DNA of 64,000 nt from a virus (taxonomy: Duplodnaviria > Heunggongvirae > Uroviricota > Caudoviricetes). This document shows positions 9,917 through 54,411 of this stretch, in pieces. The position numbers and the translations under genes were made by a program. The DNA lies in IMG/VR virus record IMGVR_UViG_2778261161_000002; one strand, 5' to 3'. A model generated the notes under the pieces. The model saw only the letters and a program-made list of their open reading frames with translations, was not told the origin of the DNA and searched no databases. Within the stretch, counting starts at the first letter, position 1. Each line of letters starts with the position of its first letter.

Positions 9917-10094
9917 CGGAATGTATGATCTGCATCATCGACTGAAGTCATCCATTGCTGAAATTTTTAGTTGATCTTCCATGTTTTCAGGCTTATATTC
10001 ATGCCGTCGTAGCAAATTCTGCGACCAGGTTTGACAGCCTGAATGTTAGTGCGGACAACCGCAGATTTCCGATATTGCGGTATTTTTGTGTCCG

Positions 10095-10215
10095 TAAACC
10101 GCGTTACGCCCGAATTATGGTGGGGCGTGATGGGGAGGCTTCGGCCTGCTGGTCTCACTAACGCCAGTCTGTCAACCCTGTCACGTCCTGCCACCTGTTT
10201 GACAGCGGGTAGCAG
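10095..10215 (+). ncRNA. c4-like antisense RNA region of an immI-type module
   Basis: GGTCTCACTAACGCC (10151-10165) is complementary to the direct repeats CCTGAATGTTAGTGCGG (10037-) and CCTGTTAGTGAGGCC (10224-); the latter overlaps the icd RBS; exact RNA ends unknown. Confidence 0.4.
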
Positions 10216-23312: not shown

Positions 23313-23389
23313 GATGGTGTAGCTCAGTAGGATAGAGCAGCAGCCTTCTAAGCTGTCGGTCGGTGGTTCGAATCCATCCACCATCGCCA
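23313..23389 (+). tRNA. tRNA-Arg (anticodon UCU)
   Basis: hand-folded cloverleaf: 7-bp acceptor GATGGTG/CACCATC, anticodon loop CTTCTAA, T-loop TTCGAAT, encoded CCA; resembles E. coli argU. Confidence 0.85.
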
Positions 23390-23391
23390 AT

Positions 23392-23464
23392 GCCGGTTTA
23401 GCTCAGTTGGTAGAGCGCCTGCCTTGTAAGCAGGATGTCAGCGGTTCGAGTCCGTTAACCGGCA
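23392..23464 (+). tRNA. tRNA-Thr (anticodon UGU)
   Basis: acceptor GCCGGTT/AACCGGC, anticodon loop CTTGTAA, T-loop TTCGAGT. Confidence 0.85.
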
Positions 23465-24629: not shown

Positions 24630-24705
24630 GGCCCTTTAGCTCAGTGGTTAGAGCAGGCGACTCATAATCGCACGGTCACCGGTTCAAATCCGGTAGGGGC
24701 CACCA
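24630..24705 (+). tRNA. tRNA-Ile2 (anticodon CAU, ileX-like)
   Basis: near-identical to E. coli ileX over the D and anticodon arms; encoded CCA. Confidence 0.8.
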
Positions 24706-49927: not shown

Positions 49928-50094
49928 AATACTGACTGTTGCGCCCTGGCATTATCGTGGGGTATATTTCTACGGCACCTTAGAAAAACGGGTGCCGGGA
50001 TTGGAACCCCGGATAATGCAAAAGGCGACACAGACGCCGAAAGCGTCTTTTCTTGTGTCATGCCATCGCACAGCCATACGTAGCGTTTAGCTCA

Positions 50095-50215
50095 GAGATC
50101 AATGGTAGTGCTGGCTGGGCTGCCGAAAGGCAGGCCGGTTCCCTTTTGCGCCGGTAGTTCCAACCCAGTCAGTGCTACCGCCATTGAGATTGGAACCTCA
50201 CGCGGTAGCTCCTTA
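50095..50215 (+). ncRNA. second c4-like antisense RNA region (distinct specificity)
   Basis: GGTAGTTCCAACC (50152-) complementary to repeated GATTGGAACC elements at 50000 and 50189; same layout as 10030-10240 with different sequence. Confidence 0.35.
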
Positions 50216-51876: not shown

Positions 51877-52236
51877 ATGATAATCGTGGCTACTAAAATT
51901 AAACTTGAAAACCCTCAAACTGGCGAATCAATCACCGGTTTTTATGGTTTTTCCTGGACTACATTCTTGTTTGGTGCTTTTCCAGCTTTGTTCAGGAAAG
52001 ACTTTATAACTTTTATTGGGGTATTCGTAGTGATGCTGATACTGGCATTCCTCACAGCCGGAATTGGCCCGTGGATTGCCTCATTTATCTGGGCGTTCAT
52101 GTATAATAAATATTTCACCGTAAATAAGATAAAACAAGGCTTCATTTTTGCTGGTTCTCACACAGAAAATGAGTTGGCTGCTAGCAAGCTAGGATTGTCA
52201 TTAAATCAAAACAACTGCAAAACTATTACCGAGTAA
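51877..52236 (+). CDS. two-TM inner membrane protein (DUF2628-like)
   Basis: GFYGFSWTTFLFGAFPALFRKDF motif and two hydrophobic helices; AT-rich; start may be GTG 51886. Confidence 0.45.
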   Translation: MIIVATKIKLENPQTGESITGFYGFSWTTFLFGAFPALFRKDFITFIGVFVVMLILAFLTAGIGPWIASFIWAFMYNKYFTVNKIKQGFIFAGSHTENELAASKLGLSLNQNNCKTITE

Positions 52237-52276
52237 TAGCCAAAAAGCAGGCTTAATAGTAAGCCTGCTATGTCAA

Positions 52277-53098
52277 TCACGAATCTCTCTGACAATTCAG
52301 AAACATAAACGCCCGCTTGTCTGTTAAATCCGTAACATAATACTCTCTCATGCCTGTAGGTTTTATTCTACGAGCATATACAAACTTATGAACTGGTTGT
52401 TTTTCCCCATAACTTACATCAGTCCTAAATTCATCAACCACGCTACCATCTTTTTCGACTTCCTTCCTCACCAGCTTATTTTCTAATGCTGGCTTTAATT
52501 CGTCCATGCCACTAAAAGCATCCTGGCCTGTACTATTGCCTCGATTTCCGCGCGGCAAATCCCAGGAGAAATAAGTGCCATAGTCAGTAATCACACGATC
52601 CCAGACTCCGGTATCCCCCATATAGTTAGAGCGCTTTCCATTGTAGGTTACAGCCACTTTACAGGAGTACGTTTCTTCATTCCCTCCAGCCTTACTCGCT
52701 GTGGTTGCAGGGATATTTTGGATAGATGCGCTTACGTCATCTTGCGTTAATTCCTCAACTGGAGCAAATTCATATATGGGTGTGCCGAGGCTATTTAAAT
52801 ATAACTTATATCTAACCCTAAGCGCACTTCCATCTGAGAATTCATACGTTCCCAGGCATTGGAGCTTATTTTTTTCTCTTATCTCATTGATCTGATTATA
52901 AGCATCAATTACAGAGATTGCTTCCTGATCGTCCTTCAGCAGTTCATTATAATCATCAATTAACATCTGTCTGGTTTTAGGGGCATTGCAGTCAATTTTG
53001 CTAAAATCATAAGCAAAGGCAAATGTGGGAACAGAGAGAGCAACAACAGTAGCAAGTATTGTTGAGGAACATCTTTTTCCATTTTTTATAAAAAACAT
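52277..53098 (-). CDS. secreted protein of unknown function
   Basis: 273 aa from Met with GGAG RBS; signal peptide ending AFA; AT-rich. Confidence 0.45.
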   Translation of the reverse strand: MFFIKNGKRCSSTILATVVALSVPTFAFAYDFSKIDCNAPKTRQMLIDDYNELLKDDQEAISVIDAYNQINEIREKNKLQCLGTYEFSDGSALRVRYKLYLNSLGTPIYEFAPVEELTQDDVSASIQNIPATTASKAGGNEETYSCKVAVTYNGKRSNYMGDTGVWDRVITDYGTYFSWDLPRGNRGNSTGQDAFSGMDELKPALENKLVRKEVEKDGSVVDEFRTDVSYGEKQPVHKFVYARRIKPTGMREYYVTDLTDKRAFMFLNCQRDS

Positions 53099-53393
53099 TT
53101 CATTAACTCCATACTTTACCATCTTAGCCGCGAGCGCGGTCCCTAAAACCATTAACTTCACTGCACCGTTCCTTCATGCAATCAAAATGACTTTTATGTT
53201 ATAAAAATAATCAGCCAAATCAACATGATTTAGGCCAAATTTCTGTCAAAAAATAAAATCCACAAAAAGTGGTTGACACTATTTTGGAAATCACAAACTG
53301 CACATAATCCATCGCGCTAACGGCTCCCGTTGAAGGTTCTTTTGACGATTAACTTTCAGCCGAAGCGCGGTAGGGAGTCATAACGCCAAAGCA

Positions 53394-53417
53394 GGCCGCC
53401 ATGTGCGGCCTTTTTTT
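53394..53417 (+). terminator. plus-strand intrinsic terminator
   Basis: GGCCGC-CATGT-GCGGCC followed by TTTTTTT, 28 nt before the 53445 start. Confidence 0.65.
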
Positions 53418-53444
53418 GTATCCGTCATCCGTGGAGGAAGGACA

Positions 53445-54098
53445 ATGGAAAAGATCGCAATATTCAGCCTGACCACCAGCAAGCCTCAAATGCTCACTGC
53501 AATACTGAAAGACGGTGCTCTCATTATTAACGAAGTAAAACCCCTTCCCGCGTCAGCATTGGAGCAAAAGCAAAAAATTCCTCCAGCTATAGCAGCCCTG
53601 CGGAAAAGCAAATTTAAGGTACTGGTAGACGAAATTACGCCAACGATCTCCGCTGGCACCGGAGCAAGCCAGGTGACTCTCAAGACCCGTCATGCCGATG
53701 GCAGAGCAGCAATCATCGTCGGGATGGAGAGATACAGAGAGTTAAAACTCCAGAAGCTATTATCCCTGCCGCAAAATAACAAAGGTGCTTTCGAAATCCC
53801 CGACTCCATCGTTGACACCGAATACAACGGTAACGGAGAAGAAGTCTACCGGGTGAACTGGCAGGATATCAGGCCGGAACATATTCTGATGATCCTGTGT
53901 TGCTACGCGACCGTATACCACAACGTTGCCAGTGCAGATTACGTAGAGCAGATGACCGGTACAGTCGAGAAAGAGCAAAAAACAGGCATACTCGCTTCGT
54001 TCCTTTCCATTATTGGGCATGAAAAAGTTAAAGCAGGCACCTCCCAGCCAAAGTCACTGGCCGGGAAAGAAGTTGATGAAGATACCGTGATACTTTGA
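53445..54098 (+). CDS. hypothetical protein (tail-cluster position)
   Basis: 217 aa from Met with GGAGGAAGG RBS. Confidence 0.45.
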   Translation: MEKIAIFSLTTSKPQMLTAILKDGALIINEVKPLPASALEQKQKIPPAIAALRKSKFKVLVDEITPTISAGTGASQVTLKTRHADGRAAIIVGMERYRELKLQKLLSLPQNNKGAFEIPDSIVDTEYNGNGEEVYRVNWQDIRPEHILMILCCYATVYHNVASADYVEQMTGTVEKEQKTGILASFLSIIGHEKVKAGTSQPKSLAGKEVDEDTVIL

Positions 54099-54233
54099 TC
54101 ACATTAGTAGCTTTGTTAACTCCCTCAATACCAGGTAGAAGAGTAACAAAAATATTGACGCAAGTATTTGCGTGGTCAATGAGGCGTTCATAAACAGATC
54201 AATAAGCTTTAACAATTCTAGAATAACATCCAT
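54099..54233 (-). CDS. 44-aa hydrophobic peptide
   Basis: MDVILELLKLIDLFMNASLTTQILASIFLLLFYLVLRELTKLLM; GGAG 8 nt upstream; below ORF-track size cut-off. Confidence 0.3.
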   Translation of the reverse strand: MDVILELLKLIDLFMNASLTTQILASIFLLLFYLVLRELTKLLM

Positions 54234-54411
54234 GTCATTCACTCCGTTTAATTTTTAATCTAATGCCAGCAAATGAAGCTGGCCCCCGCATAAAGATTAA
54301 TGAAAGTCACTTGTCACCAGTGAGGGGATCCCTGAACTGGTGGCCTGTCTGTTTCTCGCATTTCACACCCTGCATACAGTTTCCCCCAGGTTATGACTGA
54401 GAGGCTTTGTT

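What the first reader, a model, noticed from the sequence alone, without database searches (positions are those of the whole stretch)
53270..53444. Strong plus-strand terminator immediately upstream of a late-gene start
A GGCCGC-CATGT-GCGGCC hairpin with a T7 run at 53394-53417 sits 28 nt before the 53445 start, yet the nearest upstream gene is on the opposite strand. Either a short plus-strand RNA of about 100-140 nt ends here (a TTGACA hexamer lies at 53273) or this is an attenuator in the leader of the tail operon.
Basis: seen in the sequence. Interest (0 to 1): 0.35.

Follow-up and report, generated by a model that had tools for sequence, protein, structure and literature searches.

The report
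Phage late RNA complementary to capsid leader
The hairpin and T-run are real and end a conserved, unannotated RNA of about 100 nt, made from a late promoter in front of the phage mat gene, whose hairpin loop is complementary to the 5' end of the major capsid mRNA, which suggests an RNA control on capsid production.

Summary
The window is a D6-like (P1-family) phage-plasmid. The hairpin AGGCCGC-CATGT-GCGGCCT plus T7 (53393-53417) is confirmed, and a relative keeps its stem through a compensatory change. It is not an isolated terminator. It closes a ~100-nt block (about 53314-53417) that is more conserved than its flanks. The block lies just downstream of a D6-type late promoter (AATCACAAACT-GCA-CATAAT, 53289-53308; 7 copies of the motif in the window against 0.15 expected).

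The RNA folds into a long closing stem, two hairpins and the terminator, and the closing stem covaries. Nucleotides 53331-53347 (TGAAGGTTCTTTTGACG) are a perfect 17-nt complement of the 5' leader of the major capsid (gene 23) mRNA, about 18 kb away and outside the window. None of 2000 shuffles reached 16 nt. The pairing survives in Escherichia, Enterobacter, Citrobacter and Pantoea lineages through double compensatory and G.U changes.

The target overlaps a conserved helix that buries the capsid GUG start codon. Best reading: a late, leader-derived regulatory RNA that pairs with the capsid leader, probably activating translation, while its terminator also limits mat transcription. Rfam has no matching family and phage D6 carries no annotation here. 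There are no expression data, so function and direction are inferred.

The parts
53194..53206 (+). TTATGTTATAAAA, one copy of a dispersed motif (candidate D6-type C1 operator) between the simB-like gene and the RNA promoter. Its role for this RNA is unknown.
   Evidence: TTRTGTTAKAAAA has 10 hits in the window against 0.41 expected. TTTTATGTTA is conserved in the Escherichia/Shigella relatives.
53273..53278 (+). TTGACA hexamer. A TTGAC hexamer lies upstream of the -10 in every lineage examined, about 24-26 nt away by my own count from the printed sequences. It is not at -35 distance.
   Evidence: Sequence. Upstream sequences of the D6, Citrobacter, Pantoea and L075 types. In L021/L030/L034 similarity to the window starts just upstream of it.
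53289..53308 (+). D6-type late promoter of mat: box AATCACAAACT (53289-53299), spacer GCA, and -10 CATAAT (53303-53308).
   Evidence: The same motif lies upstream of the D6 late operons prt, ddrB, lydA, R, pmgB, 23, 7, 26, darB and upfC. The pattern has 7 hits in the window against 0.15 expected, with 0 of 100 shuffles reaching 7. The box and the A2/T6 positions of the -10 are kept in the Enterobacter type, where the flanks are unalignable.
53314..53417 (+). Predicted ~100-nt non-coding RNA (mat-leader RNA), from the inferred start to the end of the U-tract.
   Evidence: Identity of relatives to the window, RNA body against upstream region: 100% against 53% (Shigella type) and 80% against 23% (Enterobacter type). 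No Rfam family matches. No annotation in phage D6. The internal 17-codon TTG ORF (53330-53383) is cut to 7 codons in the Citrobacter type.
53314..53328 (+). P1 closing stem, 5' arm: GCGCTA (53314-53319), an AC bulge, then GGCTCCC (53322-53328).
   Evidence: Minimum-free-energy fold. Both sides change at 2 inner and 4 outer positions across lineages.
53331..53347 (+). Seed TGAAGGTTCTTTTGACG: the 5' arm of hairpin P2 (53331-53338) plus most of its loop (53339-53350). It is complementary to the capsid (gene 23) mRNA leader.
   Evidence: Perfect 17-nt complement in D6 at 54102-54118, and no other copy with up to 3 mismatches. 0 of 2000 shuffles reach 16 nt. Best non-self duplex in the D6 genome. 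The loop part has P(unpaired) 0.66-0.85 in four lineages. Pairing is kept by compensatory changes.
53351..53358 (+). P2 3' arm, AACTTTCA.
   Evidence: Folds. Position 8 changes U-A to A-U in the Citrobacter type.
53359..53371 (+). Hairpin P3 (GCCG-AAGCG-CGGT), containing GCGCGG (53365-53370), which is invariant in all lineages. It is a possible second contact with the invariant CCGCGC of the capsid leader.
   Evidence: Invariant columns in alignments A3/A4. CCGCGC is invariant in the capsid leaders. The contact itself is inference.
53373..53386 (+). P1 closing stem, 3' arm: GGGAGTC (53373-53379), a bulged A, then TAACGC (53381-53386).
53393..53417 (+). Intrinsic terminator: AGGCCGC (53393-53399), loop CATGT, GCGGCCT (53405-53411), and a T-run to 53417.
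   Evidence: Compensatory G-C to A-U change in the Enterobacter type. The hairpin still forms when the seed is blocked, and no antiterminator competes with it.
53433..54098 (+). Shine-Dalgarno GGAGG (53433-53437) and the mat coding sequence (53445-54098). With no room for a promoter after the terminator, mat can only be transcribed by read-through.
   Evidence: No Pfam domain.

Best explanation
The hairpin is the intrinsic terminator of a ~100-nt non-coding RNA transcribed from the D6-type late promoter of mat (start near 53315). Most transcripts stop at 53417 and release a structured RNA: a long closing stem P1, hairpin P2, hairpin P3 and the terminator with its U-tail. Transcripts that read through become mat mRNA, so the terminator also sets the mat level. 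The released RNA acts in trans. The loop and 5' arm of P2 pair with the first ~20 nt of the major capsid (gene 23) mRNA, itself made from a late promoter about 18 kb away. That target overlaps the 5' arm of a conserved helix that pairs with the capsid GUG start codon. Pairing should therefore open the helix and switch on, or boost, capsid translation (anti-antisense activation), and may also protect the mRNA 5' end. Shown in silico: the terminator, the conservation, the promoter motif, the RNA fold with covariation, the complementarity with covariation, and the start-codon helix. Inferred: the transcription start, release of the RNA, pairing in vivo, and the direction of the effect.
For: Terminator: with a compensated stem in relatives.

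Promoter: the motif is shared by D6 late operons and occurs 7 times in the window against 0.15 expected.

Conservation: the RNA body is 80-100% identical where the upstream region is 23-57% identical. Only the block from TTGACA onward is kept when the upstream gene is replaced.

RNA structure: the D6, Enterobacter, Citrobacter and L075 types share one architecture. P1 has six positions changed on both sides.

Complementarity: there is a 17-nt perfect antisense match to the D6 capsid leader and no other copy. The longest match in 2000 dinucleotide shuffles is 15 nt. The capsid leader is the best non-self duplex in D6 (-29.6 kcal/mol, next -25.6). The plasmid identical to the window over 53100-53500 carries the same target.

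Co-evolution of seed and target:
- D6: GGUUCUUUUGAC with GUCAAAAGAACC.
- Citrobacter: GGUACUUUUGAC with GUCAAAAGUAAC.
- Pantoea: GGAAUUUUUGAC with GUCAAAAAUUCC. These are three adjacent changes on both sides, and RNA and leader lie on the same contig.
- All single-sided differences inside the core duplex are G.U wobbles, none A.C.
- 18 same-contig pairs give 16-18 bp duplexes.

Capsid leader: 99% of cells pair. The start-codon helix changes U-A to C-G on both sides. The Shine-Dalgarno hairpin GCCC/GGGC is conserved. P(unpaired) of the GUG is 0.00-0.02 in the free leader and rises to 0.06-0.33 when the target is blocked. Cofold binding energies are -5.9 to -16.3 kcal/mol.
Against: - There are no transcript data: the start, termination efficiency and RNA stability are unknown.
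- The direction of regulation is inferred. In the simple model the Shine-Dalgarno hairpin stays closed after seed pairing, so activation would need the unproven second contact (GCGCGG with CCGCGC) or ribosome help.
- Covariation rests on about four deep lineages.
- The matrix of duplex energies across lineages is not strictly diagonal.
- The Pantoea RNA does not take the common fold as its minimum-energy structure: the homologous fold is 4 kcal/mol worse, and the seed loop is less accessible.
- Half of the seed is paired inside P2.
- Orphan copies of the RNA with mat persist on large Klebsiella and E. coli plasmids; no capsid gene is annotated next to the fragment, and the one such plasmid read in full has only a P1-type capsid gene. 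This may be plain decay, or it may mean a function that does not involve the capsid.
- P1 itself lacks this leader.
Confidence: 0.55

Rival explanations
1. The RNA pairs with the capsid leader as proposed, but it represses or delays capsid synthesis, for example by recruiting RNase E or III, or by titrating the leader. This would act as a timing brake or a stoichiometry control.
For: It rests on the same complementarity and covariation. The Shine-Dalgarno hairpin is not opened by seed pairing alone. A 17-20 bp perfect duplex is long enough to be an RNase III substrate (own knowledge).
Against: The free leader already buries both the Shine-Dalgarno sequence and the GUG (P unpaired 0.02 or less). 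A repressor would therefore act on an mRNA that is already poorly translatable, although gp23 is the most abundant virion protein. The target consistently overlaps the arm that pairs with the start codon, in all lineages.
Confidence: 0.17
2. The block is only a cis-acting leader of mat. The terminator throttles mat, or is overridden by a phage antitermination factor, and the structured region is a loading or stability element. The match to the capsid leader is incidental.
For: The terminator lies between the only promoter and mat. Terminator strength varies between lineages: U7, U5, or an interrupted U-run. A review of P1 notes 'strong indications' of antiterminators without direct evidence.
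Against: A 17-nt match is not reached in 2000 shuffles, and it is maintained by changes on both sides in three further lineages. That is hard to explain without selection on complementarity. No alternative antiterminator fold exists. No other late leader in D6 shows such a block.
Confidence: 0.13
3. The shared 17-bp sequence is a DNA site, bound by one phage or host protein just downstream of two late promoters in opposite orientations. An operator or roadblock of this kind would co-regulate mat and the capsid gene.
For: Changes on both sides in two copies are also expected if a binding protein changes specificity. Both sites lie at about +5 to +35 of late promoters.
Against: Where the two copies differ within one genome, the differences are always those that give G.U in RNA (sRNA G or U opposite mRNA U or G), never A.C. 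At least 8 such cases occur in the core. Strand-neutral DNA recognition does not predict this. The seed also covaries with the P2 3' arm and lies inside a covarying RNA fold that ends in a terminator.
Confidence: 0.08
4. This is an independent sigma-70 small-RNA gene started from the TTGACA at 53273. It would give a ~130-140-nt RNA that is also expressed in the lysogen.
For: A TTGAC hexamer is conserved upstream of the -10 in all lineages. In P1 the annotated Pmat also pairs a TTGACA with the late -10.
Against: The spacing to the only acceptable -10 is 24 nt. The promoter scan reports no sigma-70-type site here. At 15-17 nt spacing the hexamers lack the conserved final T in the Citrobacter type. 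Sequence conservation and the P1 stem begin at about 53314, not at about 53285.
Confidence: 0.05

Closest known systems
Anti-antisense translational activators (DsrA, RprA and ArcZ on rpoS; Staphylococcus RNAIII on hla) - own knowledge
   Same: A trans-encoded RNA pairs with the 5' part of a leader whose own fold hides the ribosome-binding region, and pairing frees it. The RNA ends in an intrinsic terminator with a U-tail.
   Different: Here both RNA and target are phage late transcripts. The seed lies in a hairpin loop and arm rather than in a single-stranded 5' end. The target is at the extreme 5' end of the mRNA. There is no sequence or Rfam relationship. The activation itself is untested.
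Leader- or attenuator-derived RNAs that act in trans (Listeria SreA/SreB riboswitch RNAs; Sinorhizobium rnTrpL) - own knowledge
   Same: A prematurely terminated 5' leader of an mRNA is released and base-pairs with another mRNA. The same terminator also limits the downstream gene.
   Different: No ligand aptamer, leader peptide or alternative antiterminator hairpin is detectable. Termination appears constitutive at the level of RNA folding.
Phage immunity RNAs: P1/P7 C4 antisense RNA (Rfam RF01695; two copies in this window) and the P4 CI RNA - partly own knowledge
   Same: Small structured RNAs of P1-family or satellite phages that pair through loops with complementary sites in phage mRNA leaders.
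   Different: C4 and CI are processed from early or immunity transcripts and block antirepressor or replication genes by pairing within their own operon. This RNA is terminator-defined, driven by a late promoter, unrelated in sequence, and complementary to a structural-gene leader 18 kb away.
Lambda 6S RNA (PR'-tR'), the short terminated transcript in front of the late genes - own knowledge
   Same: A short transcript ends at a strong terminator just upstream of late genes, and the downstream genes need read-through.
   Different: Lambda's promoter is constitutive and read-through needs Q bound at a DNA site. Here the promoter has the late (activator-type) motif, D6 has no annotated Q-like gene, only mat lies directly downstream, and the RNA body carries a conserved antisense seed.

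Membership tests
Intrinsic (Rho-independent) terminator | G+C-rich stem of about 5-11 bp with a 3-8-nt loop | tested here: met
   7 bp with 6 G-C and a 5-nt loop, at 53393-53411.
Intrinsic (Rho-independent) terminator | U-tract directly after the stem | tested here: met
   7 T at 53411-53417. Relatives have U5 to U7, and Pantoea has an interrupted run.
Intrinsic (Rho-independent) terminator | Transcripts end there in vivo | not testable with these tools
   Needs Term-seq or 3' RACE.
Trans-acting base-pairing small RNA (enterobacterial type) | A discrete unit of about 50-300 nt bounded by a promoter and a terminator, and non-coding | tested here: met
   Late-promoter motif at 53289-53308 and terminator at 53393-53417. 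The internal ORF is not conserved. The promoter is predicted, not mapped.
Trans-acting base-pairing small RNA (enterobacterial type) | Conserved seed complementary to an mRNA leader, maintained by covariation | tested here: met
   A 17-nt perfect match with 0 of 2000 shuffles reaching 16 nt. Changes on both sides in the Citrobacter and Pantoea lineages, and only G.U single-sided changes.
Trans-acting base-pairing small RNA (enterobacterial type) | Chaperone (Hfq or ProQ) binding and a regulatory effect on the target | not testable with these tools
   Only a terminator hairpin with a U-tail is visible. Needs co-immunoprecipitation and reporter assays.
Classical transcription attenuator or riboswitch | Terminator located in the leader between promoter and ORF | tested here: met
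   The terminator ends 27 nt before the mat ATG, and there is no room for a downstream promoter.
Classical transcription attenuator or riboswitch | A mutually exclusive antiterminator structure, leader peptide or known aptamer | tested here: not met
   With the terminator 3' arm blocked, only weak 3-bp alternatives form (-26.4 against -37.6 kcal/mol), and the terminator still forms when the seed is blocked. No Rfam aptamer matches. The leader ORF is not conserved.
Lambda-type Q antitermination unit | A Q-family antiterminator gene in the genome and a constitutive promoter with a qut site | tested here: inconclusive
   The D6 annotation lists no Q-like protein, but the proteins were not searched by profile. 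The promoter carries the late-activator motif rather than a sigma-70 consensus.
Rfam families (C4 RF01695, isrK RF01394, all 4227 models) | Covariance-model score at or above the gathering threshold | tested here: not met
   The best hit is isrK at 14.7 bits (gathering 50, E = 0.99), covering mainly the 3' part including the terminator hairpin.
P1 Lpa-dependent late promoter | A -10 hexamer plus the 9-bp box AAGTNACTT about 4 nt upstream | tested here: not met
   P1 LPmat and LP23 carry AAGTGACTT. No such box lies at 53289-53302, and the box is not enriched in the window (23 hits against 23 expected). A different box, AATCACAAACT, takes that position, so this is a D6-type variant.

The most novel reading that the evidence does not exclude
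D6-like phage-plasmids make translation of their major capsid protein depend on a dedicated late small RNA. That RNA is released by premature termination in the mat leader. Part of what genetics called 'maturation control' would then be an RNA checkpoint coupling the mat locus to head synthesis. It would be a new RNA family that has co-evolved with the capsid leader across Escherichia, Shigella, Enterobacter, Citrobacter and Pantoea.
Probability: 0.38. Interest if true: 0.78.

Novelty: new variant of a known kind. Interest (0 to 1): 0.62.

Why it matters
As far as I know, riboregulation of phage structural genes by a phage's own trans-acting RNA is essentially undescribed. Late gene control in P1-family phages is attributed to the activator Lpa alone. 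If the pairing is functional, it adds a post-transcriptional layer to virion morphogenesis in a widespread group of plasmid-prophages of E. coli, Salmonella, Shigella, Citrobacter, Enterobacter and Pantoea (121 plasmid records in the D6 group alone).

It also offers a compact and directly testable system: a 17-nt seed, a 50-nt leader, and natural compensatory variants that already act as a mutagenesis series. It would supply a new RNA family for annotation pipelines, which currently leave the interval blank. It may also explain why mat sits behind a strong terminator.

Tried and rejected
- Rfam at gathering and at permissive thresholds gave nothing for the region.
- TTGACA as a -35 element: the spacing is 24 nt, and no sigma-70-type site is reported.
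- The P1-type Lpa box AAGTNACTT and the P1 C1 operator consensus are not enriched or are absent.
- Extra copies of the element or of the upstream block in the window: none.
- RNAalifold on MAFFT alignments failed because lineage-specific indels shift the P1 arm. I replaced it with per-sequence folds and hand-registered helices.
- The D6 and P1 genome papers are not held in the library. Literature searches found no description of this RNA.
- The capsid leader of the L075-type contig could not be retrieved.
- The promoter pattern for the Pantoea mat leader missed its target because of a single base difference. I solved this by fetching whole plasmids.
- Mat has no Pfam domain.
- A site-specific inversion site was considered and rejected: the two copies differ within one genome, and inversion would uncouple both genes from their promoters.
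- A leader peptide was rejected because the ORF is not conserved.

Full report
**Context.** The window is 95.7% identical over 52200-54200 to Escherichia phage D6, a P1-family plasmid-prophage. The gene starting at 53445 is mat ('maturation control'; 99.5% identical to D6 Mat, 33% to P1 Mat). The upstream gene (52277-53161) is simB-like and on the minus strand. Neither D6 nor the plasmid records annotate anything in the 283-nt interval between them.

**Observation.** The hairpin AGGCCGC-CATGT-GCGGCCT with seven T's lies at 53393-53417. The mat ATG follows 27 nt later, behind a GGAGG. The consensus terminator scan is permissive (14 hits against 3.4 expected), so the hairpin matters because of its strength and its conservation. 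In Enterobacter-type relatives the stem is AAGCCGC/GCGGCTT, a change on both sides, with a different loop. No promoter fits between the T-run and the ATG, so mat can only be transcribed by read-through.

**What lies around it.**
- An alignment of six diverged relatives shows that 53317-53417 is the most conserved part of the region. Identity to the window is 100% in the RNA body against 53% upstream for the Shigella type, and 80% against 23% for the Enterobacter type.
- In some IMG/VR contigs the upstream gene is replaced, and similarity begins just before TTGACA.
- Printing the upstream regions of all D6 late operons revealed a shared motif, AAATCACAnACT-N3-TAnnnT, in front of prt, ddrB, lydA, R, pmgB, 23, 7, 26, darB, upfC and mat.
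- As a pattern the motif occurs 7 times in the window against 0.15 expected, one copy at 53289-53308.
- P1's own late box (AAGTGACTT) is absent here and not enriched.
- The predicted start is therefore near 53314-53316, exactly where conservation and the first helix begin. TTGACA at 53273 is 24 nt from the -10 and is not a sigma-70 -35 element, although a TTGAC hexamer is conserved upstream of the -10 in every lineage and remains unexplained.

**The RNA.** From about 53314 to 53417 the sequence folds into four elements:
- a long closing stem P1 (53314-53328 with 53373-53386);
- hairpin P2 (53331-53358);
- hairpin P3 (53359-53371);
- a short linker and the terminator.

The D6, Enterobacter, Citrobacter and L075 types give the same architecture independently. 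The Pantoea type prefers another fold by 4 kcal/mol. Hand-registered helices show both-sided changes at six P1 positions, two P2 positions and one terminator position. RNAalifold on the MAFFT alignments failed because indels shift one arm. No Rfam model matches (isrK at 14.7 bits against a threshold of 50). A 17-codon TTG ORF inside the RNA is truncated in the Citrobacter type, so the RNA is non-coding.

**The partner.** The D6 capsid (gene 23) leader, just after its own late promoter, reads CCCGTCAAAAGAACCTTCACGCCGCGCCC. Its CGTCAAAAGAACCTTCA is the exact reverse complement of 53331-53347.
- These are the only two copies in D6, even allowing up to 3 mismatches.
- The longest match of 2000 dinucleotide shuffles of the RNA body to the D6 genome is 15 nt.
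- In a genome-wide sliding RNAduplex scan, the capsid leader is the best non-self site.
- Gene 23 lies outside the window. The plasmid pE2863-2, identical to the window over 53100-53500, carries the same leader about 18.4 kb downstream.

**Co-evolution.** I recovered cognate RNA-leader pairs from further lineages.

| Lineage | RNA | Capsid leader | Pairing |
|---|---|---|---|
| Enterobacter | UGAGGGUUCUUUUGACG | UGUCAAAAGAACUUUCA | 14 Watson-Crick + 3 G.U |
| Citrobacter | GGGUACUUUUGAC | GUCAAAAGUAAC | U-A to A-U flip, one bulge |
| Pantoea | GGAAUUUUUGAC | GUCAAAAAUUCC | Three adjacent both-sided changes; RNA and leader on one contig |

Pantoea variants carry GUCAAAAGUUCC or GUCAAAGAUUCC, each giving a single U.G pair. 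Every single-sided difference inside the core duplex gives G.U and none gives A.C. This favours RNA-RNA pairing over a shared DNA site. Eighteen same-contig pairs give 16-18 bp duplexes. Cognate duplex energies range from -18 to -29 kcal/mol, but the cross-lineage matrix is not strictly diagonal.

**Likely mechanism.** The capsid leader has a conserved fold (99% of cells paired on 10 sequences). An inner hairpin, GCCC-loop-GGGC, holds the Shine-Dalgarno sequence. An outer helix pairs UUCACG with CGUGAA, which includes the GUG start codon. That outer helix becomes CUCGCA/UGUGAG in the Citrobacter and Pantoea types. The RNA's target overlaps four or more nucleotides of the outer helix's 5' arm in every lineage. 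The start codon is 0.00-0.02 unpaired in the free leader and 0.06-0.33 unpaired when the target is blocked. The Shine-Dalgarno hairpin stays closed. The invariant GCGCGG of P3 could pair with the invariant CCGCGC next to that hairpin, but this is untested.

I therefore favour translational activation, with repression as the main variant. The terminator has no competing antiterminator and still forms when the seed is blocked. So it is not a classical attenuator. It probably both releases the RNA and limits mat.

**Comparison and novelty.** P1 has only about 20 nt between the LPmat -10 and mat, and its gene 23 leader is unrelated. Among sequenced phages only D6 carries the element. The mechanism class, a leader-derived base-pairing RNA with anti-antisense activation, is known. 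The family, the late-gene setting and the capsid target are not described in Rfam or in the literature I could search. All functional steps remain inferences without expression data.

Noticed in passing
window 9884, 19786, 20829, 26148(-), 30581(-), 44197, 48769, 53194, 61245, 61268(-): The motif TTRTGTTAKAAAA occurs 10 times (up to 1 mismatch) against 0.41 expected. Copies lie upstream of the c4-a1b1 locus and of the ref-like gene, and in D6 upstream of the capsid/orf52 divergent region. It is probably the D6-type C1 repressor operator. The P1 operator consensus (recalled from memory) has no hit.
   Followed up: partly
window 9993-10198 and 49975-50185: Two immunity-type RNA loci: c4-a1b1 plus C4 at 9993-10198, and isrK plus C4 at 49975-50185. 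Each lies upstream of an icd/antirepressor pair, so the phage has duplicated immI-like modules, one of them with an IsrK-like RNA.
   Followed up: no
window 692, 4476, 5923, 11928(-), 11973, 53289, 57981: Copies of the D6-type late promoter (AATMACANNST-N3-NANNNT), which differs from the P1 Lpa box AAGTGACTT. Citrobacter and Pantoea relatives use a further variant, (A)GTACAAACCGC-ATAA.
   Followed up: partly
window 52246-52269: The hairpin AGCAGGCTTA-CTAT-TAAGCCTGCT lies between the convergent orf80-like (+) and simB-like (-) genes. It is a candidate bidirectional terminator.
   Followed up: no
window 54294-54312 (minus strand): A perfect P1-type late box with correct spacing, AAGTGACTT-tcat-TAATCT, points leftward toward a small minus-strand ORF (54099-54242) and antisense into mat. 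The box is not enriched overall, so this may be chance.
   Followed up: no
L046 and L047 (CP052521.1, NZ_CP061751.1) and many Klebsiella, Raoultella and Serratia plasmids: Large conjugative plasmids carry an orphan ref / leader-RNA / mat / gene 26 / gene 25 / higBA fragment of a Citrobacter-type phage, next to an ars operon. No capsid gene is annotated next to the fragment. The one such plasmid read in full, NZ_CP061751.1, has only a P1-type capsid gene elsewhere on it.
   Followed up: partly
window 23313-23386, 23392-23464, 24630-24702: Three phage-encoded tRNA genes. The D6 record annotates tRNA-Thr, tRNA-Asn and an unusual tRNA-Ser(UGA); their correspondence to these three positions was not mapped.
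   Followed up: no
L045 (P1 58773-58830, gene 23 leader): The P1 capsid leader is unrelated in sequence, but its 5' end (CUCUUCC) is complementary to its own Shine-Dalgarno region (GGAAGAG). A self-sequestered capsid leader may therefore be a general feature of the P1 family (by eye only).
   Followed up: no
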